From: Anaerolineae bacterium
GTDB taxonomy: Bacteria; Chloroflexota; Anaerolineae; 4572-78
Length of the DNA: 64,000 bases
Reading direction: 5' to 3'
Assembly: GCA_965199695.1 (NCBI GenBank)
Contig: OZ241372.1
Span: 3,729,782 to 3,793,781 of the forward strand
Of the stretch, positions 45,901 through 64,000 are shown piece by piece. Below the pieces are notes generated by a model. The model did no database searches. It was not told the DNA's origin and saw nothing but the letters and a program-made list of their open reading frames with translations. Both the position numbers and the translations under genes were made by a program. Within the stretch, counting starts at the first letter, position 1. Every line of letters starts with the position of its first letter.

Positions 45901-47647
45901 TGCAGTGGTCGTTGACCCGACTAATGCCATTGTTGAGGCAGATGAAAAGGATAATGAGGCTAAGAAAGTGATCAACGTCATGGCTCTGCCTGCACCAAAT
46001 TTAGTGCTTGAGGCGGCCAATCTTGGCTTTAATCCGTCTCATCCGACCGTTGGTGATGAGGTCGTTCTGTATGCTACTGTCTTGAATAAAGGGACAGCCG
46101 CAGCGCACCATGTTGAGGTAACGTTTATTGATGACACAGATGAGTCACGATTGATTGGGTTGCCACAGGGGATTGAGACGATTGCCCCTGGAGATAGTGC
46201 TGAGGTGCAGGTCAGCTATAATACACAGGATGTGCGTTCGCTAAGGAACGAGTTAGATGCTCGTAAGATCAAAGTGGTTGCTGACCCCAATAATTTAATT
46301 TTAGAAGCAAATGAAAGCGATAATGAAGCGACAAAAGAACTCAGCATTGCCGCTGTCGCAGCCTCTAACTTAGTGGTCTACGCAGACAATATCGGCACAC
46401 ACCCAGTCTCACCGGTTGTCGGCGATGAAGTGACGCTCAACGCAGTTATTCTGAACACTGGCTCTGCTGAAGCGAAGGATATTTTGGTGATATTTCTGGA
46501 TGTGACGGGTGAGGTGGCCCTGCCCATCGGTAAACCGCAGCAAATTGCTGGGCCTGATGGTACAAGCAGTTTGGCCCCAGGTAGCAGTGCGGCGGTGCAG
46601 ATTGTGTACGATACGACTGGTCAAGTAGGCGAACGACAGATTGAAGTGGTGGTTGATCCAAATAACCTCATTCCTGAAACAGAGGAAGATGACAACAGGG
46701 CGATTAAATCGATTTTGGTGGAATCCATGTCCGCGCCCAATCTGGTCATGTTAGCGAACAATGTTGGCTTGCATCCAGTGGGGCCAACTGTCGGTGATGA
46801 GGTTAGCTTAAAGGCAGTTGTTTTGAATCAGGGAGGTGTTGCAGCGAAAGATGTTATGGTTTTATTTGTTGATGTGACAGACGGCGATGCCCTGCCAATT
46901 GGCAAACCCCAGATAATCGCTTCGATTGAGGTGGGTAGTAGTCGTATGGTTGAAACGCGGTATGATACCACGAATAAAGTGGGTGAACGCTTGATTCAAG
47001 TCGTGGTTGATCCCAATAATCTTATCGCTGAAAATAATGAAGGCGATAATAAGGCCCTGAAGAGTCTTAATGTTGTACCGCCGCCTGAACCGACCCCGAC
47101 CATTACGCCGACCCCAACCCCATCGCCAACGCAGGCTCCAACTGATACACCTGCCCCGACTCCAACAATTGCTCCAACTGATACACCTGCCCCGACTCCA
47201 ACAGGTAGTCCAACGCCCACGCCGCCTGCCGATGACCCAAGTCCAACGGAAACAGTCTCTCCGACACCGCCGGGCGACGAACCGCCAGAAACACCTGAGC
47301 CTGAGCCGAGCATGCCCCCAGAGAGTACCCCGACACCAGATGAAAATGCCCCAACAGCAACGGCTCCGGCAGATGAGGTCACGCCAACTGCGACATCTGA
47401 GCCAGAAGATGGTCCAACAGGAACTCCGACAGTTTCTTCAGTTTCAGCATTGCCGCCGGAAATACTAGCACCTATTAGATCTGCTGATTCTGTAGGCAAT
47501 CTTTCCAACGGAAACGGCGTTTCTACGATGGCGATGCCACTTAATCAGGCTTCTGAGGAAACAGCATTTCCGAGGGGGGGGATGACAGTCAACCCTAAAG
47601 TTATACTTAGCACGGACATAAATGTAATTTTTAGGGAACGCAGATAA
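39983..47647 (+). CDS. giant secreted subtilisin-like (S8) peptidase with FN3 and lectin/MAM-like domains, 13 CARDB repeats and a PT-rich tail
   Basis: Signal peptide. S8 triad: VIDTGVD (~40510), HGTHVAG (~40685), GTSMSTPHVAG (~41205). Thirteen ~125-aa repeats PNLV..DNIG..P.EP..G..V.....NEG.A.A..V.V.F.DVT.G...PIG.PQ.I....AGSS....V.YDT..KVGER.I.VVVDPNN.I.E..E.DN.A. Confidence 0.85.
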   Translation: MISKRSILYVVLTMFLVLGLQPPVSTGAQTSSDEEDEPPFVPGQLIIGFRAGVTGEEIATFYEDYNFTEASDLDGNPNDTDEEEKLAYVPAQVTQDFIASVERDPRVEFAEPNYLLSVDFGPNEFMWPQALTPDDPQFDEMWGLNNTGQTGGTDDADIDAPEAWEITTGSTEILVGVIDTGVDYDHEDLAANMWVNPDEIPDNGIDDDDNGYVDDIHGINAINDSGDPMDDFGHGTHVAGTIGAKGGNGLGVIGVNWDIRIIACKFLGASGGGNSANAVKCFKYFNQLKAKGYKVLITNNSWGGGGFSQALKEAMAATDQPDNTPILHVCAAGNAGNDNDSIPAYPGSYDLDNILAVAATDHHDLYASFSSYGAVAVDLAAPGVEILSTVPTGNCALCDPTGYEFVNGTSMSTPHVAGTAALIWAQYPDSTYLQVIQRLLSGVDPLDDTSKATVTNGRLNAFNALEDDSSPPAAVNDLAIDNAGLASITLRWQATGDDGLEGTANGYDIRYSDVGPFDWETATKVSDEPKPQAAGETETFAVSGLDPSTTYHFAIRVLDNVGNASELSNIVTGNTKAGSPIFEDDVESGEGEWTIADDDALWHISEHRANSPQNAWYYGIEGTWNYDTGGPNSGTLTSPPIDLSDTPEALLTFYEWSEVETNNSYDRTRVQISLDGKNWETIFESHGTNDTWIKRVIDLTSYVDEEIQLRFWFDTIDGLFNTFEGWYIDDVTVFGLSKEPPPAQSNLLIPESNVGLNPADPQAGDEIVIRATILNNGTSIASDVTVMFFDLSQDEGKAPKPIGQPQIIERIAPGGSGQAKITYSPDPAEMSLHQPSQRAIQVVVDPNNTIVEGNETDNETTKNFQIAPAPSPNLVILESNIGLSRAEPVSGEEIFIKATVLNQGTAGASEVAVLFIDVTDGTSIPIGPQQIIETVPAGGSGLVQVRYDTSGKVGERQIQVLVDPNNIIQETPESDPNGANDNQAQKTLTIHATALSNLVARSDNIGFDQPSPNWGDEVTISAVIGNDGQAEANQVMVLFVDATDSSGSTETAPVPIGLPQIIKTIAAGSSQRVQVGYRLPEQSGVSGHSPSLEREILVVIDPYNVIPETTESDNEAQATLSVTPPPAPNLVVQAETIGIHPATPSVGQAVTLRAIIFNKGTAEAKPGAADEILVLFVDATGGELIPIGPPQTLPSLAPGTSTVIEIAYDAPGKVGERLIQVILDPDNVLLESDESDNEAKRTLTVTALPKPNLVVTADNIGFDPPEPMNGESVTIHAAILNTGNAEAQAVLIKFVDITGGGARLIGEPQTIDVIPAGSSDRVEISYLARSRGEREIAVEVDPNNTIVERAEDDNKASQVLSIRSLAGPNLSLLDSNIGIDPAEPADGETITIRAVVLNTGGRRVSNVTVSVIDVTEGGIVPIGGPQTISSIAPGGSGSIQIPYNPFGRLGTLRLPGQVVSQARERQIQVVVDPNNTISETDEMDNMATRGVTIASPPVPNLLVPVDNISVTPSQPRMGEDVTLRAVILNDGDAEASDISVMFVDITDNGFVPIDSLQTISNLEPGGSKAVQVRYETRHRGPSNEADGPVGSSVSTSERQIRVIVDPNNTVPEARESDNEAVKTFVITPLPKPNLVMFASNIGLNVAEVKTGTPLTVTATIINDGGAPASGVRVLFADVTGGTAKPLDDLQVISEIPPGGSGVAQLVYNTLGRSGERILHIMIDPNNTIPEAVEDDNQAEKSFTISPPPRANLVILENNIGLHPQEPLVGQTVTLHATILNDGDASVKDVAVRFVDVTDGANQNGSLGAIPIGEVQMIASIPPGSSGSVQVNYDTSAKVGQRQIEVIVDPHNLIGEAKESDNTQIKTFMVAALAKPNLVIQADSISLNPLQPQAGDVVLLNAVVMNKGTAPAREVMVKFVDVTDGGSIPVGTLQILSAPDGDTVIMPGSSGTVEVMYDTHKQVGGGAFETEREIAVVVDPTNAIVEADEKDNEAKKVINVMALPAPNLVLEAANLGFNPSHPTVGDEVVLYATVLNKGTAAAHHVEVTFIDDTDESRLIGLPQGIETIAPGDSAEVQVSYNTQDVRSLRNELDARKIKVVADPNNLILEANESDNEATKELSIAAVAASNLVVYADNIGTHPVSPVVGDEVTLNAVILNTGSAEAKDILVIFLDVTGEVALPIGKPQQIAGPDGTSSLAPGSSAAVQIVYDTTGQVGERQIEVVVDPNNLIPETEEDDNRAIKSILVESMSAPNLVMLANNVGLHPVGPTVGDEVSLKAVVLNQGGVAAKDVMVLFVDVTDGDALPIGKPQIIASIEVGSSRMVETRYDTTNKVGERLIQVVVDPNNLIAENNEGDNKALKSLNVVPPPEPTPTITPTPTPSPTQAPTDTPAPTPTIAPTDTPAPTPTGSPTPTPPADDPSPTETVSPTPPGDEPPETPEPEPSMPPESTPTPDENAPTATAPADEVTPTATSEPEDGPTGTPTVSSVSALPPEILAPIRSADSVGNLSNGNGVSTMAMPLNQASEETAFPRGGMTVNPKVILSTDINVIFRERR
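42203..47090. repeat. array of 13 coding CARDB-like repeats, period ~370-390 nt
   Basis: Repeat boundaries read from the protein (..SNLLIPESNVG.. through ..APNLVMLANNVG..). Divergent at DNA level. Confidence 0.7.
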
Positions 47648-49343: not shown

Positions 49344-49545
49344 ATTTTGAATCCAATATTATAGCCAAAAGGCGTAACGATAGAGCGAGTTATTCTGCGC
49401 CATTCGTGCTAAAAAATGTTCCTGAGTAAAAGGCTTCTTTTTGTTCCCTGTTTTTAAGCGTGATATACTCCCCCTTCGTGTTTTACAACTGTCCAAAAAG
49501 TCAACTTTTTTCCTCGTAGCGTATACGATATTTTTGGAGGCCATT

Positions 49546-51132
49546 TTGCTCATCGAAGTCACCCTGTTTTTTATAAAATTAGTTTATATCATCGCCGCTT
49601 TGTGGTTGGCGGTTTATGCTTTTAATAATTGGATCTTGACTTTCATTTACTGGCGGTATCGACGACAGGTTCCCAGACTGCTAAGGTTTTCTGACGAACA
49701 ATACCACCCCGACTCACTTCCTCCGGTAACAGTACAATTGCCCATCTATAACGAAGCTGAAGTGGTGGAAAGATTAATTAAAAGTGTTATCAAACTTGAT
49801 TACCCAGCCCATTTATTACAGATTCAACTCTTAGATGATTCCACAGATCAAACGAGGCTGGTCGCTCGGTCTTTAGTCGAACAGTATCAGCATCAAGGCA
49901 TTAATATTACGTATATTCATCGTCAGGACCGAAGCGGGTTTAAGGCCGGCGCTTTGCAGAAGGGGTTAGAAACGGCCACAGGTGAATTCATCGCCATGTT
50001 TGATGCTGATTTTATCCCACCAGCCAACTATTTGCAGAAGATTATGCCCTATTTTCTTGCACGACCAAACCTTGCTTTCATTCAAACTCGCTGGGGTCAC
50101 ATCAATCCGACATATTCTTTTTTGACTGGGGCTCAGTCAGTCGCTTTGGATGGACACTTTGGGATTGAACAGGTGGCCCGTAATCGAAGCGGGTTGATGA
50201 TCAATTTTAATGGCACGGGAGGCGTGTGGCGCCTAGTGGCTATTCAAGATGTGGGTGGATGGCAAGGAGAAACAGTTTCTGAGGATTTGGATCTTAGTTA
50301 TCGTGTTCAATTAAAAGGTTGGGATTGTCTTTATATTCGTGATGTGGTTGCCCCGGCTGAACTGCCCCCCCAATTGGCGGCTTTTAAACGCCAACAATAC
50401 CGTTGGGCTAAAGGTTCCATCCAATGCTTGAAAAAACTAGGCCAGTCCCTGCTTCAATCTGATCAATCAGTTTGGGTAAAATATCAAGCACTGCTCTATC
50501 TTACAGGCTACTTAATCCACCCCTTAATGATTATTCTGTTGCTCGTATCATTATCCCTAATTTTACAAGGTCAATCAGTGGTTTTTCCTTTGGCTTATTT
50601 AACTATTTTGAGTTTTGCGCCACCTACCCTTTTTATTGTTGGTATTTTTTCTTTATATGGCCGTCAAGCCCTCAAACGTCTCAGGTATTTACCCATCTTA
50701 ATTTTATTAGGCTCTGGGATCGCCTTAAATAATACAAAAGCCATCTTTGAGGCTATATTGGGGGTAGAAAATACCTTTCGCCGTACGCCTAAGTTCAACA
50801 TTGAATGTAAAACAGATCAATGGCAACAAAGTTCTTATAAGCTTTGGGCGGATAAGTTGATTTTTTTTGAAGTAGGTCTAAGTCTTTATGCGGTAATCAC
50901 AGCCATAGCCGCTTTACAAAGCGAAAATTATTTAGCCATTCCCTTTATTATGTTGTATGCGCTGAGTTTTAGCTATGTCGGTGGCTTGGGTCTTTGGGAA
51001 ATGCAAGGTGACATTCGTTTGTGGGTTAAATATTTCTTCAAAAGAAAGTCACCTTCTAAACCAGTGTCTGAGAAACGAGCTTCCTATGAGTATTCGAGAC
51101 CTTCAAGGTTCTCGTCTAACCCGAAGGGTTAG
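49546..51132 (+). CDS. processive family-2 glycosyltransferase (cellulose/chitin-synthase-like)
   Basis: Motifs DDSTD, FDADF and QQYRWAKG (QxxRW), with N- and C-terminal TM helices. Start is uncertain: TTG 49546 after GGAGG is proposed; the track gives TTG 49441. Confidence 0.8.
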   Translation: MLIEVTLFFIKLVYIIAALWLAVYAFNNWILTFIYWRYRRQVPRLLRFSDEQYHPDSLPPVTVQLPIYNEAEVVERLIKSVIKLDYPAHLLQIQLLDDSTDQTRLVARSLVEQYQHQGINITYIHRQDRSGFKAGALQKGLETATGEFIAMFDADFIPPANYLQKIMPYFLARPNLAFIQTRWGHINPTYSFLTGAQSVALDGHFGIEQVARNRSGLMINFNGTGGVWRLVAIQDVGGWQGETVSEDLDLSYRVQLKGWDCLYIRDVVAPAELPPQLAAFKRQQYRWAKGSIQCLKKLGQSLLQSDQSVWVKYQALLYLTGYLIHPLMIILLLVSLSLILQGQSVVFPLAYLTILSFAPPTLFIVGIFSLYGRQALKRLRYLPILILLGSGIALNNTKAIFEAILGVENTFRRTPKFNIECKTDQWQQSSYKLWADKLIFFEVGLSLYAVITAIAALQSENYLAIPFIMLYALSFSYVGGLGLWEMQGDIRLWVKYFFKRKSPSKPVSEKRASYEYSRPSRFSSNPKG

Positions 51133-53437: not shown

Positions 53438-54637
53438 TCATTCCTGCTGAGACGGCTTTTTTCGCCAGACAAGGTAAAAGACGAATGAAAATAAAACAAC
53501 TGTCACAAGCAAGGTGATAATCGGTATCCAGCGTAAGGTGAAATGTTCTTCAGTGGGAGGTAAAAGGGATTGAGGGTCTTCTGACTGTAAAGTTGATGTC
53601 AGGCTGGGCACAGGCGTTAAAACAGCCTCAGCGACTGTGATAGGGGTTGGGCTGGGTAATGCAGTGGGTTTCGTTGTTGGAGGAGCAGGTTTAGAAGTAC
53701 TTGTCGGGACAAATGTACTCGTTGGTGTAGATGCGTCCGTCGGTGAAGGGGTGCCTGTTGGTGAAGACGCGGCAGGGTGTGTAGCTAATGCCATCAGATT
53801 AGTTTGATTAGGTGCAGTTTGACCCTCAGCGACATCTGCTTCTATAGCTATATCTTGGTCAGGTTCCGCCTCCTCAGATTCATTGACCATCAGAGCCTGT
53901 CTTTTGTTTGTATTAGGCGGAGATTCAGCTTGTTCATCAGAAGGCATGTCTGTATCTGCCGTCTCAGTGTTTACGACTGGGCCCATGGCTATTGGAGTCA
54001 TCGTCGGTAGAGACTGGGGCGCAATATTTGCTTCTATTTGCCCCTCGTCTTCTGCCACGCTTTTACCCTCTGCTCTAGCCCCATCATCTGCCATAGCTTC
54101 TGCCTCTGGTCTATCATCTACTATTTCCTCGGCCCTACTTTTCGCTATAGGTTTTTCTGCGCTCTCTTCAGATGCCAAAGCCTCATCTGCTGCCATCGAT
54201 TCTTGTTGAACGCTTTCCTCGACTGGTACCATCGCCACCATCGACAATGTTTCTTGCGTGGAGATGCGCCAGAAAACACCACCGATAATCACTAAGGCTA
54301 TCAAAGCAACAAGCCCACCCCACATTGGCTTAAATAAGGTGAACCAAGACCCCTGAAGTGATTTTTTTGGCCTGAGACCAGCATCGGTTTCTGTCAAGGT
54401 GAAGGGACGCAGAGAAGGAATCTTTGGTAATTCTTGTAAAAGAGCGACGGTCTGACGCAAATTATGTAACTCCTGTTGTAATTCAGGGACTTCAGATAAA
54501 ATACGTTCCACAAAAGCCTGCTCTGTTAAGCTTACCTCATTGTCTAAGTAAGGCGATAGTAACTTACGTGCTTCTTCTATTTGTTTATGAATATCAGGTT
54601 CGTGTGAATTCATCATGTCATTGAGAATGTTTATCAA
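53438..54637 (-). CDS. anti-sigma factor: Cys-less RskA-like N-domain, TM, acidic/PT-rich extracytoplasmic region, C-terminal TM + RKK tail
   Basis: N-terminus ...LSPYLDNEVSLTEQAFVERIL... (anti-sigma-like), TM1 WGGLVALIALVIIGGVFW, and C-terminus PPTEEHFTLRW-IPIITLLVTVVLFSFVFYLVW-RKK. Lies directly downstream of the ECF sigma gene. Confidence 0.55.
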   Translation of the reverse strand: MINILNDMMNSHEPDIHKQIEEARKLLSPYLDNEVSLTEQAFVERILSEVPELQQELHNLRQTVALLQELPKIPSLRPFTLTETDAGLRPKKSLQGSWFTLFKPMWGGLVALIALVIIGGVFWRISTQETLSMVAMVPVEESVQQESMAADEALASEESAEKPIAKSRAEEIVDDRPEAEAMADDGARAEGKSVAEDEGQIEANIAPQSLPTMTPIAMGPVVNTETADTDMPSDEQAESPPNTNKRQALMVNESEEAEPDQDIAIEADVAEGQTAPNQTNLMALATHPAASSPTGTPSPTDASTPTSTFVPTSTSKPAPPTTKPTALPSPTPITVAEAVLTPVPSLTSTLQSEDPQSLLPPTEEHFTLRWIPIITLLVTVVLFSFVFYLVWRKKPSQQE

Positions 54638-54671: not shown

Positions 54672-55262
54672 TTATTGTCTGAGACGGTAAGGCTGCGGTA
54701 AAAGTTCCTGATCTTTCAAGGCATCCCGCAGCTTGCGTCGCGCACGGCTTAAGCGCGACTTAACCGTTCCTAATGCTAAACCTGTAATTTCTGATATTTC
54801 CTGATAGCTAAACCCTTGCACATCATTGAGGACGACAATTGTCCGTTGATCTTCGGGCAATTGTGAAATAGCTTCTTGGATCATATCATGTAATTCATGC
54901 CGTAGGGCAGTCTCTTCAGGTCGTTCAGCTTGATCAATCAAATGAGGCACGTAATCCAGATCAGTTTCAGCCCCATCGGTCTCTAAAGCCTCTGTAGGTC
55001 GCCGTTGGTGGTAACGAAGGTGGTCGTAACAGGTGTTGGTCACAATGCGTAGGAGCCAACTTTTGAAAGAGCCACCTTTATAGTGCTGTATGGCCTTAAA
55101 GGCCTTAATAAACGCTTCTTGGGTAGCATCTGCTGCATAGTCACCATCGCCAATAACCCGATAGGCTACATTGTAGGCCAGGCTTTGATAGGCCATCACC
55201 AATCGGTTAAAGGCTGATAGATTTCCCTTTTGCGCTAACTGAATGGTCTCAGTTTCGGTCAT
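54672..55262 (-). CDS. ECF (sigma-70 family, group IV) RNA polymerase sigma factor
   Basis: Region 2 (FNRLVMAYQSLAYNVAYRVIGD...ATQEAFIKAF) and region 4 (SYQEISEITGLALGTVKSRLSRARRKL). Confidence 0.85.
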   Translation of the reverse strand: MTETETIQLAQKGNLSAFNRLVMAYQSLAYNVAYRVIGDGDYAADATQEAFIKAFKAIQHYKGGSFKSWLLRIVTNTCYDHLRYHQRRPTEALETDGAETDLDYVPHLIDQAERPEETALRHELHDMIQEAISQLPEDQRTIVVLNDVQGFSYQEISEITGLALGTVKSRLSRARRKLRDALKDQELLPQPYRLRQ

Positions 55263-55387
55263 AGTGGTAGGGGTAGATAGTATAGGGCGTAGAAAGGATT
55301 GTCAGTCATTGATTCTCATTACCTGACCATGCCCTACATCGTATTTGACTTAAATCAAGGTTAGGATTATACTCTACGATATCTTAG

Positions 55388-55469
55388 GCCGAAGTGGCGG
55401 AATTGGCAGACGCGCACGACTCAAACTCGTGTGGAGTAATCCGTGTGGGTTCGACTCCCACCTTCGGCA
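55388..55469 (+). tRNA. tRNA-Leu (anticodon CAA)
   Basis: Hand-folded cloverleaf: acceptor GCCGAAG/CTTCGGC, anticodon stem CACGA/TCGTG with loop CTCAAAC, T-arm GTGGG-TTCGACT-CCCAC, and a long variable arm GGA-GTAA-TCC. Confidence 0.8.
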
Positions 55470-55642
55470 TTTCGCGTGAATTTCACGGGCGAGTTCCAAG
55501 AGGAATGCCAATATTATATGTTTAAGTTGGCAAATACGCCAAGCTAGAGAGCCTGCTTCATCACACATTCGATCAGTGAAATCTGATTTGTGATGAACAA
55601 ACAGGCTTTTTTTTTGAAAAGTTATAATTGAGAAGGACAATT

Positions 55643-56728
55643 ATGAAGTCGCGGTCATCCTTTGATAAACGCATTTTAATTTTGGTGTCCATCATTCCAG
55701 TCGCTTGCCTATTTGCTATTGGGGTTGGTCTGCTAGTCACTTGGGTTGTGTTCCCCAATGTGGTGCCAGGGAATCAGATTAGTGATCTGGCTCCAGAAGA
55801 GATAGAAGAATTTGTTCGTTTGGTCGCCGCTGAATATGCTGCTGCTGACGATTTGGAAAAGGCACGTCAACGGCTGCAAGAGTTAGACATACCGCGTCCA
55901 GAGCAATACGTTGCCTTTTTAGCGGATCGCTATATTCAAGAGGGCCGTGCTAAGGATGATACTGATCTATTAAATGTGATCAATTTGGCGCAAGCTTTGG
56001 GTACTAGTACGAATAGTATGCTGGCTTATATTTATACGCCCACCCCCTTACCGACTGCGACACCACTGCCTACCGAAACGCCAGAACTAACGTATACCCC
56101 AACGAATACGCCTGTTCCGACAGAGACCCCTATTCCAGAAAATACAGCAACCCCCGTCCCACCTGATACGCCGACACCTGTACCTCGACCAACCCAGAGA
56201 CCTCAGCCAGTCGCTGCAAATACCCCTGTTCCACCGCCGAATACCCCGGCACCTGCTGTCGACTTTCGGGTCGCTAAGGTGAATATGCTCACGAAGCAGG
56301 AAAATGGTGGGTGTCTAGGTGCCCATCAAATTTATGTTGATGTTCTGGATGTGCATGGAGATCCTTTATTAGGGGCGAAAATTGCCGACCCCCCTTTCAA
56401 CAACTTTGTGCGAACTTCAGGCGAAAAAAATGAACCCATATTCCATTATGGCAACAAATTGGCTGAGATTGACCTTTATAAAGGGGGCGCAAAACTGGCT
56501 ATTATTGAATACCCCGAAGGCAATCCTGTGACGAGTGAACTCAGTCCCCAGTTAAGTACGAACGATTGGGAAATTCCTATCCCGTGGCTCATTCAAGCCG
56601 GATATTGTGCCAATGAAGGGGAATGTCGCGCCAAATGGAACAGCGGTGTGCCTGGGGTTGGTTCAAATTCCTTATGCTGGGGACATTATTCTTTTTACCT
56701 AGCTTTCCAAGCGACGCGTCCTTTTTAG
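55643..56728 (+). CDS. membrane-anchored protein (signal-anchor + helical domain X + PT linker + C-terminal domain Y)
   Basis: RBS GAGAAGGA before ATG 55643. TM LILVSIIPVACLFAIGVGLLV. Domain X: EEFVRLVAAEYAAADDLEKARQRLQEL. Domain Y: VDFRVAKVNMLTKQENGGCLGAHQIYVDVLD... Confidence 0.65.
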   Translation: MKSRSSFDKRILILVSIIPVACLFAIGVGLLVTWVVFPNVVPGNQISDLAPEEIEEFVRLVAAEYAAADDLEKARQRLQELDIPRPEQYVAFLADRYIQEGRAKDDTDLLNVINLAQALGTSTNSMLAYIYTPTPLPTATPLPTETPELTYTPTNTPVPTETPIPENTATPVPPDTPTPVPRPTQRPQPVAANTPVPPPNTPAPAVDFRVAKVNMLTKQENGGCLGAHQIYVDVLDVHGDPLLGAKIADPPFNNFVRTSGEKNEPIFHYGNKLAEIDLYKGGAKLAIIEYPEGNPVTSELSPQLSTNDWEIPIPWLIQAGYCANEGECRAKWNSGVPGVGSNSLCWGHYSFYLAFQATRPF

Positions 56729-56743
56729 ACTTATAAAACCCCT

Positions 56744-57658
56744 ATGCGACATGAAAGCGATTGGTGGCTCGGTGGCTTTTTGATCGGCTTCTTTGTTGGG
56801 TTGAGTCTAACGCTCATCTATGGCTGGTATTTAGACCCGCGTATACCGACGATTACGCCAGCCCAACTCGACTTAGCTGATACTGAAACGTATATTTTGC
56901 TCATCGCGGCAGCTTACCGTTCTGACCGTGATTTAGCGAAGGCCGAAGCACGATTAGCCAAATTTAAAATGGATAATGTTGTTCAGTTTATTGGAGACTT
57001 AGCTGAACACTATATCAATCAAAATGCTGATATTCATGATATTCACTCCTTGGTTGTCTTAGCTGATGGACTAGGCCAGCCTTGTGCTTTATGTCGGCTT
57101 TATCTGCCTACAGCAACATCTCACTCAATAGAGGCATTGACCACGATAGGTAGGCCTTCTACAGCCATCACGTCACCTACGCCAACTTCAACCCAAATCA
57201 GGGTTGACGAACCGATACCAAGGGCAACCTTACCCTCAGACCAACCACTTAATGACTTAAGCCCTACCCCCAATCCGACAATAACCCCACGCTCACCCAA
57301 GGCCCCCAGGGTAGACCCCCCTTTTAGACTAGCGCAATCTGTGCCTTTGTGTGATAATAGCAGCGATGCCCACTTGAGAATTTATGTGCAGGACCGTCAA
57401 GGTCAAGGTATACCAGGGATAAAAATTAACGTTCGTTGGGCGAACGGTGAGGATAGCTTTTTTACGGGCTTAAAACCGGAAATTGACTCTGGGTATGCTG
57501 ATTTTGATATGCAGCCTGATACAATTTATCAAGTTTCTCTCGGTGATTCATCCATCACCAGGGTCAAGGATATCAATCAAAATGCGAAGACCCGTTGCAC
57601 AAATTTAGCTAATGATATCAGTCCGTCTTGGCAGCTTGTCTTCCAACAAACAAACTAA
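56744..57658 (+). CDS. paralog of the 55643 gene (signal-anchor + domain X + PT linker + domain Y)
   Basis: Domain X YILLIAAAYRSDRDLAKAEARLAKF aligns with the 55643 protein. C-terminal domain Y: FRLAQSVPLCDNSSDAHLRIYVQD... Confidence 0.65.
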   Translation: MRHESDWWLGGFLIGFFVGLSLTLIYGWYLDPRIPTITPAQLDLADTETYILLIAAAYRSDRDLAKAEARLAKFKMDNVVQFIGDLAEHYINQNADIHDIHSLVVLADGLGQPCALCRLYLPTATSHSIEALTTIGRPSTAITSPTPTSTQIRVDEPIPRATLPSDQPLNDLSPTPNPTITPRSPKAPRVDPPFRLAQSVPLCDNSSDAHLRIYVQDRQGQGIPGIKINVRWANGEDSFFTGLKPEIDSGYADFDMQPDTIYQVSLGDSSITRVKDINQNAKTRCTNLANDISPSWQLVFQQTN

Positions 57659-57676
57659 TGTTGAAAAGGAAGGACG

Positions 57677-60634
57677 TTGAACGAAGAACTTCTCCAAAAA
57701 ATACCACTTTTTGCTCAACTGAGTTATCGCGAACAACGCGCTTTAGCGAAACATATTCAACCCGAAATGTATCGACGCGATGAGGTGATTTTTGCTGTCA
57801 ATGATGATAGCGATGCTCTCTACATCATCGAGATAGGATGGGTTAGCCTATCAACCGATGGACGGACGACTTTAGTCAACCTAGGCCCTGGCAGTCTCAT
57901 CGGTGATACGGATTTTTTCAGTGGTGCCCCGCGAGCGATGACAGCGCGAGCGACTGCTGAGGTACAAGTTTGGGTTTTAAGCCACCAAACTTTACATTCG
58001 TTGATTAATAGCCACCCTGAGCTTGGCCTCACCCTGAGCCAAACGCTGGCCAGGCCTATTCGGCAGATGATCCCTTATTTAGCCAATAAACTCGCGCAAA
58101 CATCGGCCCTGCAAACTTTATCACTGGATGGACATCAAGTGATTGCTAGTCTTTTGACCGTGCAAGTGGTTCAAGCAGGGCATACCCTATTTCAAATAGG
58201 CGATGAAGCAAAGAATTTATACCTTATTGAACGGGGTCTTATTCGTCTGACCGATGATCAAGAACGGTTTTATGACCTTGAGCCGAATGATCTGTTTGGT
58301 GAAATGGCCTTGCTCACTGGCAAACCTTATAGTCAAACAGCCCACGCCGTTGAGGATAGTCTTGTGTGGTTTTTGGATGCCTCAAATTTTCAGACAGTGG
58401 TCAAACAGTATCCCGATGTCCGTACCTTATTGAGCCGTGCTGTGACCATGCCTTTGAGTCAGTCTGATCAAACGCAAGCCAGGCCTGTTTTGCAGGGAGT
58501 TTCACTATTCAGTGCCTTGCCTCCTGAAGCTTTAGCAGATATAGCCTCTCATCTTTTGTTGCGTCATGTGTCAGCCGGGGAAGACATTTATCGGCTGGAT
58601 GAACCCGGTGATGCCATGTATATTGTTGAGTCCGGTGAAATCTCGCTCAAGGATGCTCAAAATCAACCCCTGTCTCAACGAACCACTGGGTATGTTTTTG
58701 GTGAAGTGGCTCTCTTGACAGGCAAAAATCGTACCGAGACCGCAGCCGCTTTAAGCCATGCTAATTTATGGTCATTATCCCGTTCGGATTTTGATACCCT
58801 GCTCGCTAAATATCCTCAACTAAGTGCCGCCCTTGGGAGTTCACTACAGGAACATTTACGTGCCGCTGATGATCATCTTGTCGAGAAACATTTACAACAG
58901 TTGGCCACCTTGGGAGGCTTATCACGCACTCAGCTTGATGAGATTTCAGCGTACCTCTATGCGCGGCGATATCAAGCAGGCGATATCATCTATCAAGAGG
59001 GGACACCTAGTCAAGCCTTATACTTTATTGAAAACGGTCAGGTTGAACGATTTGCTTCTACCCAACCCGGGCCTGTCTCGCTCTCAGCTTTGTCATCTGG
59101 TGATTTTTTTGGTGAAACCGCGCTATTGTCAGGGAGACCTCATACAGAGACCGTCCGTACGCCAGCCGGGGCTGACATTTGGGTTCTCAATAAACAAGAT
59201 TTTGATGAATTAGTTTATAAACATCCGAATTTTTCTGCCGTTGTAAATCGGATGATGAGTGACCGGATGGTAGAGGCGATGGACCTGTTACGGAACAGGC
59301 TAGCTGTGCAACCAACACAACAAATACCGCCCGCATCTTCATCAACCCCTGCTCCGAGTCGTCCCAGGCCACCCATAAATCCACAGATTCCGCCGCAGGC
59401 TGTTTCCTCTCAGCGTTCCCGCCCTATGCCGCCGCCATCGCCGCCTTCTCGCCCCAATCGTCCTATGTCCAAAGGGACATCGCCTATACCACCTCCCAAC
59501 TTATCCAGAGGACGTGGGGCTAATGGTTCTGGAGAACGCATCTCGTCGAAACCGAATAGTCCCAAATCATCTGCTCAATCGGGTTCTGGACGGCCTAGCA
59601 ATGCCAATAGTCCCCCCTCACGTTTTGGGTCTGCTTTGGCCAAAAGCTCAGTTCAAACACAGGGGCCGCGGAATGGACAAGTTCAGCGAGCGAGTCGAAA
59701 ATCGCGCCCTCAGACAAGCCGTAATATTGCTCGTGAAGCTAGTAAGATTGGCTCTGGTATTAAAGGGCATATCGATAACACCAGTTATTGGTTTGCCAAT
59801 ATGCCTTTAGGCACGAAGGTCGGTTTGTTCATTTTTATTTTTGTCATTATCTGGATTTGCGGTATTGCTGCTCCATCACTGGTGATTCAGGCTTTAGCTG
59901 CGGCTATCTTTGGCGAAGATAGTCAATTTTTAGTTGATGGTCAAAAGCCTGCGAATATTGTCAGTCGGAGTTTGGCTCAAAATGGTTTGGTCGCTGCTTT
60001 GCCTTTTGTGGAAACAACAACGCCAACCCTAACCCCGAGTCCGAGTCCCTCTGCTACGCCGAGTCCATCCACCACACCGGTCTCTACCCCTTTACCAACG
60101 TTTACGCATACGCCGACTCTAACCCCAACGCCTGAAGATACACCCACACCGACCCTGATTCCCACCGATACTCTGACACCGATTCCTATCCTAACGAACA
60201 TACATTCTAGGCCCCGCGCTCCCATAAACACACCTGCGCCTGAGCCAACCCCAACACCTGACGTTGACTACATTGTCGCTAAAGTACGCAAGCTCACGCC
60301 TTGCGAAAATGCGGGCAAGCATCACATTTTCATTCGGGTACTTTCCGCTAGTGGTCAGGGATTGAATAATGTCCCTGTCAAAATCGCTTGGGGGCCTAAC
60401 TCGCAAGACCATGTGATTAACCACACTGAACCCAAGGACCGTGGTGATGGATTTATTGAATATGCTATGTTTAAGGGGACTTACAGCGTCGAAGTAATGG
60501 GCGCAAAGTCACAAGTGGCGAGCGGCATCACGGCTGATTACCAAACTGATGAAGCCTGTGAGGCGACAGGGGATGCTGTTGGTAATTCGCTTTTTCATGC
60601 TTCTTTCGAGGTGGTGTTGCAGCGGACGTTTTAA
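57677..60634 (+). CDS. four tandem cNMP-binding domains + Pro-rich linker + single TM + PT linker + C-terminal domain Y
   Basis: cNMP-binding cores at about aa 5-115, 140-255, 270-385 and 410-520 (e.g. LFGEMALLTGKPYSQTAHAV, VFGEVALLTGKNRTETAAAL, FFGETALLSGRPHTETVRTP). TM VGLFIFIFVIIWICGIAA. C-terminal VDYIVAKVRKLTPCENAGKHHIFIRVLS... is shared with the two upstream genes. TTG start after AAGGAAGGA. Confidence 0.8.
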   Translation: MNEELLQKIPLFAQLSYREQRALAKHIQPEMYRRDEVIFAVNDDSDALYIIEIGWVSLSTDGRTTLVNLGPGSLIGDTDFFSGAPRAMTARATAEVQVWVLSHQTLHSLINSHPELGLTLSQTLARPIRQMIPYLANKLAQTSALQTLSLDGHQVIASLLTVQVVQAGHTLFQIGDEAKNLYLIERGLIRLTDDQERFYDLEPNDLFGEMALLTGKPYSQTAHAVEDSLVWFLDASNFQTVVKQYPDVRTLLSRAVTMPLSQSDQTQARPVLQGVSLFSALPPEALADIASHLLLRHVSAGEDIYRLDEPGDAMYIVESGEISLKDAQNQPLSQRTTGYVFGEVALLTGKNRTETAAALSHANLWSLSRSDFDTLLAKYPQLSAALGSSLQEHLRAADDHLVEKHLQQLATLGGLSRTQLDEISAYLYARRYQAGDIIYQEGTPSQALYFIENGQVERFASTQPGPVSLSALSSGDFFGETALLSGRPHTETVRTPAGADIWVLNKQDFDELVYKHPNFSAVVNRMMSDRMVEAMDLLRNRLAVQPTQQIPPASSSTPAPSRPRPPINPQIPPQAVSSQRSRPMPPPSPPSRPNRPMSKGTSPIPPPNLSRGRGANGSGERISSKPNSPKSSAQSGSGRPSNANSPPSRFGSALAKSSVQTQGPRNGQVQRASRKSRPQTSRNIAREASKIGSGIKGHIDNTSYWFANMPLGTKVGLFIFIFVIIWICGIAAPSLVIQALAAAIFGEDSQFLVDGQKPANIVSRSLAQNGLVAALPFVETTTPTLTPSPSPSATPSPSTTPVSTPLPTFTHTPTLTPTPEDTPTPTLIPTDTLTPIPILTNIHSRPRAPINTPAPEPTPTPDVDYIVAKVRKLTPCENAGKHHIFIRVLSASGQGLNNVPVKIAWGPNSQDHVINHTEPKDRGDGFIEYAMFKGTYSVEVMGAKSQVASGITADYQTDEACEATGDAVGNSLFHASFEVVLQRTF

Positions 60635-61013
60635 GGTTGAGATTGACGTATTATGTAAGAGGTAATATTATACCTCTTGGAGATAGGGTTTCGTTTGGCT
60701 TTGCCGCAGAAAGTATCGGTGCGGCGACCAGATATGGGCTTAATCCTAAATAGCAATCCAGTGCAGATGGGCTTGTTAGAGCATAGCTATGAAATTTTAT
60801 CTCATTCAAGAAAGACGGAGATAGAAAGGGATACCATACACAAAAAAGGAGAATATCAACTAAGCATTCTCAAAGACTGTGCTTTGCGCGGCGAGATGAT
60901 CAAAATTAGGCGTGTGGACAGGTTCACCACCTGCCGCTTCGGATCTGTGGTCCATATAGCGAAAACTATGCTCATCGCTGAAGATGAAAAGAATATTGGG
61001 TATCGTCATCAGT

Positions 61014-61190
61014 CTATTCCCCCCAATCTTCTTCCTCTTCTGGAGCCATTTCTAAGACCACTGGAGAAAGCGACATCACCTCTAGCTCGACTTCACACTC
61101 TTCACAGGTGACGATTTCACCCTCTACCACATCATCCGCCAAGACCACTTCAGCAGCACATTCTGGACATTCAGCCGTTAAATTTGCCAT
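61014..61190 (-). CDS. lysW: LysW/ArgW-like amino-group carrier protein (58 aa; below the ORF-track size cutoff)
   Basis: Own translation: MANLTAECPECAAEVVLADDVVEGEIVTCEECEVELEVMSLSPVVLEMAPEEEEDWGE. It has a CxxC...CxxC zinc ribbon and an acidic C-terminus ending EDWGE, which is the LysW hallmark. Confidence 0.65.
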   Translation of the reverse strand: MANLTAECPECAAEVVLADDVVEGEIVTCEECEVELEVMSLSPVVLEMAPEEEEDWGE

Positions 61191-62453: not shown

Positions 62454-63527
62454 CTATATTCTAAGTTGTTTGCCTAGCCCTTGCTGATATGGGCCGAGAA
62501 ACTTTTCTCCATCAAAATGGATTAAATGGTCTGGTGATGAGGCTATCCATACCTCAGTTTCCCAAGCAATGTCGGCAACAAATTTTTTAAATGTAGCTCG
62601 GTCAATAAATGCAGTTACGAAAATAATGTCAGCGGTACAGCTCTTTAAAAAAGGCTGTAAAGCGATGATTCTTTCAGGACTCATTGGACCGGACGAATGA
62701 ACAGCCTCAATTAAGTACAGCCAGTTTTTCTTAGATGAGTATGCTACTACGTCTGGTAGTTCTTCATGAGCTAATGTGGCGAGTCGAATCGTATCAGCAG
62801 TATCCTCATCATAATGCAAGAATTTGTTTTCAGCATCACCAATGTATACAACTTTTGCTCCAAAACCATACCGAGGTAGAAATTCTTCCACGATTGCCTT
62901 TTGAAGCTGGTTATGTTCACCTAGCCCAAACTTCAATTCAGTGCCTGACGGAAGTTGTATTGGTATTCTGGGTAAATCGCGGTGTGCTGCCAGTTGCGCT
63001 CTTAGGGTTGTTTGACCCTTAAAAGATTTTTCTACCATAGACTCCCAATTGTCTTGAGAATAGGCTCTGATTAACTCAACATATGCCGGATTTACTGCCC
63101 AGGCACGATTCGGGTCGTTTCGTGCAGATTCAGGGCGGTCTGAAATTACTACTCCCGCAAGAGCGGGATGCTTGAGGTCTTTACGTCTAATATCATCATA
63201 TGAACCTCGAGAAATATTTTCGGCAAAATGTGCATTGATGTAGTCAATAATTTCTCTTGTCTTTAATGCATATACGTCATCTAAGGATTTTGCTTTGCTC
63301 CAATCCTGACTAGTTTTTACATCACATAAAGCAAGAAAAGCAAGAGCCATGCGTTCCAATTTGCGAGCAGTTTTGTCCTCAATTGGAACACCGAAATGTT
63401 CTAGAATATGTAAAGCCTCATTTATGAGTTGCTGAACTTTGGAGGGTTTTGCATCAAAGGTATGATAAGATGCACCTTTAATACCAAGCGTTTGAGCTAC
63501 TGAGCTGTTTATGAGGTATCTTTTCAT
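62454..63527 (-). CDS. putative type II restriction endonuclease (BsuBI/PstI-like; family uncertain)
   Basis: Low-GC gene immediately downstream of a C5-methyltransferase gene. Weak PD-(D/E)xK-like segment PDVVAY...LYLIEAVH. ATG 63527. Confidence 0.45.
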   Translation of the reverse strand: MKRYLINSSVAQTLGIKGASYHTFDAKPSKVQQLINEALHILEHFGVPIEDKTARKLERMALAFLALCDVKTSQDWSKAKSLDDVYALKTREIIDYINAHFAENISRGSYDDIRRKDLKHPALAGVVISDRPESARNDPNRAWAVNPAYVELIRAYSQDNWESMVEKSFKGQTTLRAQLAAHRDLPRIPIQLPSGTELKFGLGEHNQLQKAIVEEFLPRYGFGAKVVYIGDAENKFLHYDEDTADTIRLATLAHEELPDVVAYSSKKNWLYLIEAVHSSGPMSPERIIALQPFLKSCTADIIFVTAFIDRATFKKFVADIAWETEVWIASSPDHLIHFDGEKFLGPYQQGLGKQLRI

Positions 63528-63542
63528 CACTAGGTTGAGCGT

Positions 63543-64000
63543 CTAAAACAAGGCCAACTGTTTGGGTTGCGTGTTAAATCTATTGTACCGTTTAATTTCA
63601 TCAAAAGTCATCTTATTTTCATCTGAAAGCAAATATTCTTTGACACTCGCCGCAAGATAGTAAGAAAATAAAGGGGGAACAGCATTTCCGATTTGATTAA
63701 ATTGACTAGTTTCGCTTCCCTCAAATTCAAACCAGTCAGGGAAACTCTGTAATCGCGCTGCCTCTCTGACAGTTAATCTACGTCTACGTCCGTCGGGTAA
63801 ACGGATACGCATCATGTCCCCAGTAGCACCTGCTAGGTTTCGACAGGTTACTGTACGTGACGGTTCATTCAAATGTAAATCACGTGGGCGGATACACTTT
63901 GAGGCTTTTTCATATTTTGCTACATATTCATCCATACTAGGGGTTAAAAATTTTGCATCCATCGGAATTTCAATAGCCATTTTTCCCAACGCATCACCAG
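63543..64000 (-). CDS. DNA (cytosine-5)-methyltransferase, C-terminal part (N-terminus beyond window end)
   Basis: C5-MTase motifs IX/X: [19 protein letters not shown]...[14 protein letters not shown]. Confidence 0.7.

What the first reader, a model, noticed from the sequence alone, without database searches (positions are those of the whole stretch)
55643..60634. Three-gene cluster of membrane proteins sharing a novel C-terminal extracytoplasmic domain; one member carries four cytoplasmic cNMP-binding domains
Seen in sequence. Genes 55643, 56744 and 57677 each end, after a Pro/Thr linker, in a ~120-135-aa module with common positions: [FY][RI]VAKV..LT..EN.G..H.I...VL...G..L plus a conserved Cys (VDFRVAKVNMLTKQENGG.. 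/ VDYIVAKVRKLTPCENAGKHH.. / FRLAQSVPLCDNSSDAHLRIYVQD..). The first two also share a post-anchor helical domain (LVAAEYAAADDLEKARQRL / LIAAAYRSDRDLAKAEARL). The third places four CAP-type cNMP-binding domains and a ~150-aa Pro-rich segment before its single TM, so a cytoplasmic nucleotide sensor is wired to the same extracellular module. This looks like a cell-surface/signalling system under cAMP or cGMP control (inference). The cluster lies next to an ECF sigma/anti-sigma pair and a tRNA-Leu. I recognise neither shared domain as a named family.
Basis: partly seen in the sequence, partly recalled or inferred. Interest (0 to 1): 0.85.

Follow-up and report, generated by a model that had tools for sequence, protein, structure and literature searches.

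The report
Conserved Anaerolineae surface-protein cluster with cNMP sensor
Three adjacent genes in a Chloroflexi (Anaerolineae) genome encode membrane proteins that hold the same uncharacterised, probably cell-wall- or sugar-binding domain outside the cell on long stalks, and one of them also has four cyclic-nucleotide-binding domains inside the cell; the cluster is conserved across the class but its function has never been studied.

The parts
53438..54637 (-). Anti-sigma factor (399 aa). It has a zf-HC2-like N-terminal domain, TM1 at about aa 105, a 248-aa acidic Ala/Pro/Thr/Glu-rich external loop (net -32), and a second TM at the C-terminus.
   Evidence: Pfam zf-HC2 E 0.0017 (below the gathering score) and NCBIfam anti-sigma E 3e-7. 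The two-TM architecture is conserved in 5 of 6 orthologs. Orthologs carry zf-HC2 on record.
54672..55262 (-). ECF sigma factor (196 aa), transcribed divergently from the cluster.
   Evidence: Sigma70_r2 and r4_2 match; TIGR02937 scores 128.8 bits against a cutoff of 42.9. It is adjacent in 26 of 32 related loci that can be judged.
55345..55373 (+). Sigma-70-type promoter-like site (TTGACT-17-TATACT) upstream of the tRNA. The same TTGAC(G)-N17/18-TATACT site is present in orthologous loci.
55388..55469 (+). tRNA-Leu(CAA), on the same strand as gene A and directly upstream of it.
   Evidence: ARAGORN and Rfam. It is conserved directly upstream of the first X-Y gene in 40 of 42 loci.
55546..55615 (+). 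Long hairpin followed by a U9 run (intrinsic-terminator-like), ending 27 nt before the start codon of gene A.
   Evidence: The spacer folds with z = -4.1. A hairpin plus T-run is found in 26 of 43 orthologous spacers, with compensatory stem changes. No Rfam family matches.
55643..56728 (+). Gene A (361 aa): TM anchor (nt 55673-55741), X helical domain (55748-56047), Pro/Thr linker (56048-56257), A-type Y domain with a Cys-rich insertion (56258-56725).
56744..57658 (+). Gene B (304 aa): TM anchor (56768-56833), X (56834-57118), linker (57119-57319), B-type Y (57320-57655). Its Y copy has Glu changed to Asp and has lost two of the conserved His.
57677..60634 (+). Gene C (985 aa): CNB1 57692-58051, CNB2 58091-58450, CNB3 58490-58849, CNB4 58892-59260, basic Pro/Ser/Arg linker 59264-59785, conserved juxtamembrane/TM segment 59786-59914, Pro/Thr linker 59984-60262, C-type Y 60263-60631.

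Best explanation
This is a conserved, uncharacterised cell-envelope module of Anaerolineae (Chloroflexota). A and B (plus a second A copy in some lineages) are type-II membrane proteins. Each has an N-terminal TM anchor, a small TPR-like helical domain X next to the membrane, a 65-70-aa Pro/Thr stalk, and a distal beta-sandwich Y. C carries the canonical form of Y on an approximately 90-aa stalk outside the cell. Inside the cell, a PKA-R/PKG-like array of four CNB domains hangs from the membrane on a long basic disordered tether. Y is a disulfide-stabilised extracytoplasmic domain of the transthyretin/CarboxypepD_reg-like superfamily with a conserved polar pocket. Its most likely role is binding a cell-wall or extracellular glycan, because elsewhere it accompanies glycoside hydrolases, peptidoglycan hydrolases and polysaccharide-sensing-type anti-sigma factors. 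The proposed working model has two parts. First, the stalks place Y in or beyond the wall, where it binds an envelope polymer. Second, C physically couples that attachment site to a cytoplasmic cyclic-nucleotide receptor (chiefly CNB3). Nucleotide-dependent oligomerisation or partner recruitment at the inner face would then be localised to, or would cluster, the external anchors. This is spatial or avidity coupling, not allosteric transmission. Conserved TM motifs in A (PVGCL) and C (W-x-CGI-x2-P) suggest that the proteins associate within the membrane. The genes form an operon downstream of a tRNA-Leu(CAA) gene and its terminator, and they usually sit next to a divergent ECF sigma/anti-sigma pair that may regulate them. 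Shown: architecture, homology, fold class, extracytoplasmic location of Y, and synteny. Inferred: the glycan ligand, the A/B/C complex, the nucleotide ligand, the direction of information flow, and regulation by the sigma factor.
For: Homology of X and Y among the three genes. The Y model has pLDDT 94 and a transthyretin/CnaB/CarboxypepD-like fold, with sub-threshold CarboxypepD_reg, SdrD_B and Big_1 hits in family members. Y is extracytoplasmic: it lies C-terminal to the single TM with positive residues on the N-terminal side; paralogues carry Tat signals, lipoboxes or Sec signals; and a co-varying Cys pair is present in both positions in 91 sequences, absent from both in 24, and present in one position in 3. 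The polar signature E19/N20/D32/N112/H116/S118 is 90-97% conserved over 118 sequences. Y is fused to GH5/39/42/10-like domains, Muramidase, M23, Amidase_2, LysM, SH3_3, PG_binding_1, dockerin and zf-HC2+SAF anti-sigma proteins. There are four CNB domains, and CNB3 is canonical in 16 of 18 orthologs. The best solved match is four-CNB PKG. The TM motif is conserved while the linkers vary. Synteny is conserved in loci with A-protein identity down to about 35%. A family-2 glycosyltransferase recurs nearby.
Confidence: 0.5

Rival explanations
1. C is a receptor of the anti-sigma type. Y senses an external polymer or damage, C is cut by site-1 and then intramembrane proteolysis, and the CNB array with its basic tail is released into the cytoplasm, where it acts together with cNMP. 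A and B would be co-receptors or decoys.
For: The same Y domain sits in the external part of true zf-HC2 anti-sigma factors with SAF and GH5-like domains. C's TM helix has conserved helix-destabilising Gly and Pro residues (W-x-CGI-x2-P). The cluster usually neighbours an ECF sigma/anti-sigma pair. Peptidase_MA_2 recurs downstream in three loci.
Against: No site-1 or site-2 protease is consistently encoded in the cluster. C has no DNA-binding or enzymatic output domain. The basic tail is low-complexity and poorly conserved in length.
Confidence: 0.15
2. Y is mainly a protein-protein assembly or stalk domain. A, B and C form a heteromeric surface structure through Y-Y and X-X contacts, and no glycan is bound.
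For: Three or four paralogous Y proteins are always co-encoded. The fold class (CnaB, CarboxypepD_reg) is typically structural. X is TPR-like, which is a protein-interaction fold.
Against: Y also occurs singly on many unrelated secreted enzymes and as a stand-alone Tat-exported protein. The strongly conserved polar residues E, N, H, D, N, H and S are unusual for a pure spacer.
Confidence: 0.2
3. Y is a small catalytic or metal-binding domain that acts on the envelope, using its conserved His, Glu, Asp, Asn and Ser residues (for example a His-dependent site), rather than a passive binder.
For: The invariant polar residues include two or three His, and Met73 is 78% conserved. A single member shows a very weak CueP hit. 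Dioxygenase and 5-hydroxyisourate-hydrolase-type transthyretin folds appear among the weak structural hits.
Against: In multidomain relatives a recognised catalytic domain is already present next to Y, which is typical of accessory modules. No significant similarity to any enzyme was found.
Confidence: 0.1

Closest known systems
Carboxypeptidase-regulatory-like / transthyretin-like / CnaB beta-sandwich domains (Pfam CarboxypepD_reg PF13620, SdrD_B, SpaA; e.g. PDB 8bdw, 5aq0, 3kpt)
   Different: No window protein reaches any Pfam threshold. Y has its own signature (C-E-N-x-G-x-H-H ... G-N-S-x2-H-x-S) and a conserved disulfide pair. A-type Y carries an extra Cys-rich helical insertion. The isopeptide residues of CnaB domains were not identified.
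Tandem CNB arrays of PKA regulatory subunits and apicomplexan PKG (four CNB domains, one degenerate; e.g. PDB 5dyk, 4rz7)
   Same: Four CNB domains in tandem, some degenerate. The best sequence matches (E about 4e-21) span three consecutive domains. There is no HTH.
   Different: C has no kinase domain and no inhibitor sequence. Instead it has a basic disordered tether, a TM helix and an extracellular domain. It is bacterial and membrane-anchored.
RsgI-type anti-sigma factors of cellulolytic clostridia (own knowledge: an N-terminal anti-sigma domain, one TM helix, and an extracellular carbohydrate-binding or GH-like sensor)
   Same: The logic is the same: a cytoplasmic regulatory domain, a single TM helix, and an external glycan-related module. 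Relatives of Y occur in exactly such proteins (zf-HC2 + SAF + Y + GH5-like; P0261, P0286, P0293, P0305).
   Different: In gene C the cytoplasmic part is a CNB array, not an anti-sigma domain. The anti-sigma factor encoded next to the cluster has no Y domain and instead has an acidic disordered loop between two TM helices.
CRP/FNR (CAP) transcription factors
   Same: They share the CNB fold and give weak NCBIfam similarity.
   Different: C has no HTH DNA-binding domain. All CRP/FNR equivalog scores are far below their cutoffs (for example 95.7 against 266). The CNB domains are in tandem rather than in a dimeric CNB-HTH arrangement.

Membership tests
Cyclic nucleotide-binding domain (Pfam PF00027) | The HMM match exceeds the gathering score. 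| tested here: met
   254 bits against 27.5, in four separate stretches. The four repeats were delimited independently.
Cyclic nucleotide-binding domain (Pfam PF00027) | The phosphate-binding cassette has Gly-Glu and Arg-[Thr/Ser] contacting the cyclic phosphate. | tested here: inconclusive
   CNB3 (FGEVALLTGKNRT) is canonical, and so are 16 of 18 orthologs. CNB1 has G-D...P-R-A. CNB2 has Tyr and CNB4 has His in place of the Arg. CNB2 has no Arg in any of 18 orthologs.
Cyclic nucleotide-binding domain (Pfam PF00027) | The domain actually binds cAMP or cGMP. | not testable with these tools
   This needs ITC, DRaCALA or a similar assay on purified protein.
CRP/FNR (CAP-type) regulators | A C-terminal HTH DNA-binding domain follows the CNB domain. 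| tested here: not met
   No HTH Pfam hit. NCBIfam CRP, FNR and NtcA models score far below their cutoffs.
CarboxypepD_reg / transthyretin-like superfamily (for Y) | A seven-stranded prealbumin-like beta-sandwich fold. | tested here: met
CarboxypepD_reg / transthyretin-like superfamily (for Y) | A sequence match to a Pfam family model above its gathering score. | tested here: not met
   None of the three window proteins has a hit, apart from Big_1 at E 0.069 for B. The best hit among 19 family members is E 2e-4, below threshold.
CnaB-type isopeptide domains | An intramolecular Lys-Asn/Asp isopeptide bond with a catalytic Glu or Asp. | not testable with these tools
The Lys is not in the first strand, unlike in CnaB.
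TPR-like helical repeat (for X) | Helix-turn-helix repeats with a TPR-type fold or sequence match. | tested here: inconclusive
ECF sigma factor (neighbour) | Sigma70 regions 2 and 4 only, with a match to TIGR02937. | tested here: met
   128.8 bits against a cutoff of 42.9. Pfam r2 and r4_2 match.
zf-HC2 class I anti-sigma factor (neighbour) | An N-terminal zf-HC2 anti-sigma domain followed by a TM helix, encoded next to the sigma gene. | tested here: inconclusive
   Pfam gives 18.8 bits against a gathering score of 22.2, E 0.0017. NCBIfam anti-sigma gives E 3e-7, below its cutoff. Orthologs in L013-L015 carry zf-HC2 on record. Position and TM fit.

The most novel reading that the evidence does not exclude
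C is the founding example of a bacterial single-pass 'cyclic-nucleotide receptor tether'. A PKG-like four-CNB array would be mechanically linked, through a conserved TM helix that pairs with A and B, to a new wall- or glycan-binding domain. Second-messenger levels would then control how filamentous Anaerolineae attach their membrane to the wall, sheath or neighbouring cells. Expression of the operon would be gated by read-through of the conserved terminator that follows a dedicated tRNA-Leu(CAA) gene, coupling envelope remodelling to tRNA transcription or growth state.
Probability: 0.15. Interest if true: 0.8.

Novelty: new variant of a known kind. Interest (0 to 1): 0.6.

Why it matters
Anaerolineae are abundant, mostly uncultured filamentous bacteria of sediments, digesters and activated sludge, and their envelope biology and signalling are almost unknown. 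This work defines two unannotated domain families. Y has at least 559 clusters at 50% identity and accompanies glycoside and peptidoglycan hydrolases and anti-sigma factors, so it deserves a family entry and a test as a candidate carbohydrate-binding module. The work also defines a class-wide gene module that ties a cyclic-nucleotide receptor to the cell surface. If Y binds a defined polymer, it would annotate hundreds of CAZyme-like proteins. If C responds to cAMP or cGMP, it would be a new output type for bacterial cyclic-nucleotide signalling: neither transcription factor, channel nor enzyme. The unusually tight linkage to a tRNA gene and terminator gives a testable regulatory hypothesis.

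Tried and rejected
2. AFDB Foldseek search of Y. The library was not available.
3. An ECF-type promoter (GGAAC-N15-17-CGT) upstream of A or of the sigma gene. It was found only in three closely related loci and never upstream of sigma, which is about the chance level, so the idea was dropped.
4. The tRNA-to-A spacer as a known riboswitch or leader. No Rfam hit, and RNAalifold on six divergent spacers gave no consensus. The spacers fall into at least two unrelated classes.
5. Contamination of the B profile by A-type sequences. Three sequences dropped out when the B set was purified (one A-type, two with no BLAST hit), and the result held.
6. Finding the source genome. The proteins are called, unnamed, on a 6.11-Mb NCBI/ENA contig, but the contig could not be retrieved and is not among the GTDB representatives.
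7. Literature. Three full-text searches found nothing on this architecture.
8. Chance or pseudogene explanations were rejected because of conservation across more than 40 loci.
Full report
**Observation.** The three ORFs are present as described.
- A runs from 55643 to 56728 (361 aa). The ATG is preceded by GAAGGA, and its N-terminus matches the homologs.
- B runs from 56744 to 57658 (304 aa).
- C runs from 57677 to 60634 (985 aa). Its TTG start is preceded by AGGAAGGA.
- The intergenic gaps are 15 and 18 nt, so the layout is operon-like.
- All three are called, unnamed genes on a 6.11-Mb NCBI/ENA contig.
- Each has one strongly hydrophobic segment: A aa 11-29, B aa 9-30, C aa 719-737.

**Shared modules.**
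- Pairwise BLASTP supports X (A versus B, 5e-11) and only partly supports Y. B versus C gives 1e-6 over 109 aa, A versus C gives 7e-6 over 37 aa, and A versus B gives nothing.
- I built family alignments from 120 A-type, 110 B-type and 18 C-type homologs.
- Profile-profile comparison is then decisive. A_Y versus C_Y gives 99.2% probability, E 1.9e-19, over 121 columns. B_Y versus C_Y gives 99.2-99.3%, E about 1e-20. A_Y versus B_Y gives 92-95%, E 5e-7 to 3e-8. A_X versus B_X gives 99.9%, E 3e-31. The X-versus-Y controls are null.
- C-type Y is the central form, and the A and B types are diverged offshoots.

**Gene C, cytoplasmic part.**
- Pfam finds four cNMP_binding domains (E 6e-77).
- There is no HTH, and the CRP/FNR NCBIfam models score far below their cutoffs.
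- The best solved relatives are Plasmodium PKG, which also has four tandem CNB domains, followed by PKA regulatory subunits. The array is therefore PKA-R/PKG-like, not CAP-like.
- Across 18 orthologs only CNB3 keeps the canonical cassette FGEMALLTGK-x-R-[TS] (16 of 18). CNB2 never has the Arg, and CNB1 and CNB4 have it in about a third of sequences. In the window's protein, CNB1 and CNB3 have it.
- Between CNB4 and the membrane lies a 174-aa segment that is 18% Ser, 16% Pro and 11% Arg, with net charge +22. In orthologs this segment varies from 70 to 260 aa.
- By contrast, the juxtamembrane/TM segment carries a conserved motif, W-F-x5-G-x-K-x2-L-x5-L-x2-W-x-C-G-I-x2-P-x3-I-x-A. Gene A's anchor has a conserved P-V-G-C-L.

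**What Y is.**
- No Pfam, NCBIfam or PHROGs model matches, and a PDB sequence-profile search finds nothing significant.
- The AlphaFold model of A's Y is confident (pLDDT 94.3, pTM 0.88).
- Seven of 19 family members give sub-threshold CarboxypepD_reg, SdrD_B or Big_1 hits.
- Y is therefore a new sequence family inside a common fold superfamily.
- An exhaustive HMM search of 1.84 billion representative proteins finds 559 proteins at E of 1e-3 or better and 121 at E of 1e-10 or better.
- Over 118 full-length domains the signature is L-T-x-C-E-N-x-G-x-H-H-I-F ... D ... K ... S ... C ... G-N-S-x2-H-x-S. E19, N20, D32, N112, H116 and S118 are each 90-97% conserved.
- The two Cys are both present in 91 sequences, both absent in 24, and single in 3. 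This indicates a disulfide that ties the C-E-N loop to the N..H.S segment.
- Gene B's copy has Asp in place of the Glu and has lost two of the His.

**Location and company of Y.** Y follows the single TM helix, with the positive charges on the N-terminal side. Other architectures carry it in the following ways.
- A Tat signal (SRREALKAL; Pfam TAT_signal hits in 5 of 19).
- A lipobox followed by a Pro/Thr linker (L004-L007).
- Sec-type signals.
- One, two, three or four CNB domains followed by a TM helix.
- zf-HC2 anti-sigma N-termini with SAF and GH5-like domains (P0261, P0286, P0293, P0305).

Among 56 Y proteins without CNB or X, the partner domains are CarboxypepD_reg (13), GH5 (6), GH42 (4), GH39 (3), GH10 (2), Muramidase (2), Peptidase_M23 (2), SH3_3 (2), Amidase_2, PG_binding_1, LysM and dockerin. 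This is the typical company of an accessory wall- or glycan-binding module. The ligand itself remains inferred.

**Synteny.** I annotated 96 related loci with my own HMMs and aragorn. After correcting six automatic miscalls by inspecting, the tallies among loci that can be judged are as follows.
- tRNA-Leu(CAA) directly upstream on the same strand: 40 of 42.
- Divergent ECF sigma (with anti-sigma): 26 of 32.
- B after A: 24 of 34.
- A CNB gene directly after the last X-Y gene: 26 of 34.

Some lineages have two A copies (L010, L012, L015, L016, L056, L066). A few have A followed directly by C (L063, L069, L074, L075, L096). L001, L045 and L052 lack an adjacent C. Where sources give names, they are Anaerolineae, Caldilineae or Chloroflexota.

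**Neighbours.**
- The anti-sigma factor has a zf-HC2-like N-terminus, TM1, a 210-300-aa acidic low-complexity external loop, and a second C-terminal TM helix in 5 of 6 orthologs. It has no Y domain.
- A membrane GT2 lies at 49441-51132, and the same domain set recurs near the cluster in L008, L010 and L015.
- No nucleotide cyclase was seen near the cluster.

**tRNA and leader.**
- A conserved TTGAC(G)-N17/18-TATACT promoter precedes the tRNA.
- In the window the tRNA-to-A spacer folds well (z = -4.1). It is dominated by a long hairpin plus U9 that ends 27 nt before the start codon.
- A comparable hairpin plus T-run occurs in 26 of 43 spacers, with compensatory inner-stem changes.
- Other lineages have a different, GC-rich spacer without a terminator.
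- No Rfam family matches.
- It is unresolved whether A-B-C is expressed by read-through from the tRNA promoter or from a promoter overlapping the terminator.
- A search for an ECF-type promoter was negative.

**Mechanism.**
- The data support a class-wide envelope module. Y domains are displayed on Pro/Thr stalks: 65-93 residues with a P+T+S fraction of 0.49-0.61.
- Y most probably binds a wall or extracellular glycan.
- One component, C, adds a cytoplasmic cyclic-nucleotide receptor array.
- Long disordered segments flank the membrane on both sides, so allosteric transmission is unlikely. Spatial coupling, clustering or recruitment fit better, possibly through the conserved TM helices.
- Rival readings are RIP-type receptor processing, a pure assembly domain, and a catalytic or metal-binding site. 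All remain open.

**Novelty.** No paper in the searchable library describes this architecture. X and Y have no family entries. The folds are known. The combination, the conserved cluster and the tRNA linkage are new variants of known kinds rather than a categorically new system.

Noticed in passing
window 55345-55642; also L002, L003, L008-L017 and many of L019-L084: tRNA-Leu(CAA), with its own strong sigma-70-type promoter, is the most conserved neighbour of the cluster (40 of 42 loci), more so than the ECF sigma factor. In 26 of 43 loci a terminator-like hairpin plus T-run, with compensatory stem changes, lies between the tRNA and the first X-Y gene. In the window only 27 nt separate it from the start codon. 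This may be a read-through or attenuation arrangement. No Rfam family matches.
   Followed up: partly
L014, L020-L024, L028, L031 (spacer between the tRNA and gene A): A second, unrelated class of tRNA-to-A spacer is GC-rich and has no T-run. It has conserved blocks (GTCAATGGAGAC ... GGGAACA ... TTATGTGAAAC ... CATTATA) just before the SD. Three of these loci contain GGAAC-N16/17-CGT, but this is not above chance.
   Followed up: partly
window 53438-54637 (-): The anti-sigma factor has an unusual hairpin topology. A zf-HC2-like domain and TM1 are followed by an approximately 250-aa very acidic Ala/Pro/Thr/Glu low-complexity external loop (net -32) and a second TM helix at the extreme C-terminus. 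This is conserved in 5 of 6 orthologs.
   Followed up: partly
P0261, P0286, P0293, P0305 (metagenomic proteins, not in the window): These are anti-sigma factors with zf-HC2 + TM + SAF + Y + one or two GH5/GH42-like TIM-barrel domains. They are architecturally analogous to the polysaccharide-sensing RsgI anti-sigma factors of clostridia, but appear to come from Chloroflexi-type metagenomes.
   Followed up: partly
window 49441-51132 (+); L008 20845+, L010 18107-19645, L015 16009+: A membrane family-2 glycosyltransferase (Glyco_tranf_2_3 / Glyco_trans_2_3, processive-synthase-like) recurs within a few kb of the cluster in several genomes. PCMT and Peptidase_MA_2 also recur downstream in L010, L012 and L015, and hrcA-grpE-dnaK recurs in L008 and L013.
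   Followed up: no
window 39983-47647 (+): A giant 2554-aa secreted protein has an S8 subtilase domain with a fervidolysin-like prodomain, fn3, a MAM-like domain and 13 CARDB repeats.
   Followed up: no
window 62454-63989 (-): A BsuBI/PstI-type restriction endonuclease lies next to a C-5 cytosine DNA methylase that is cut off by the end of the window. GC content falls to 0.41 here, which may indicate a mobile restriction-modification island.
   Followed up: no
window 60635-60680 (+): Immediately after the stop codon of gene C there is a promoter-like TTGACG-17-TATTAT, resembling the tRNA promoter, overlapping a 7-bp hairpin (AAGAGGT...ACCTCTT). It precedes a 144-aa ORF (60677-61111) that has no Pfam match.
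   Followed up: no
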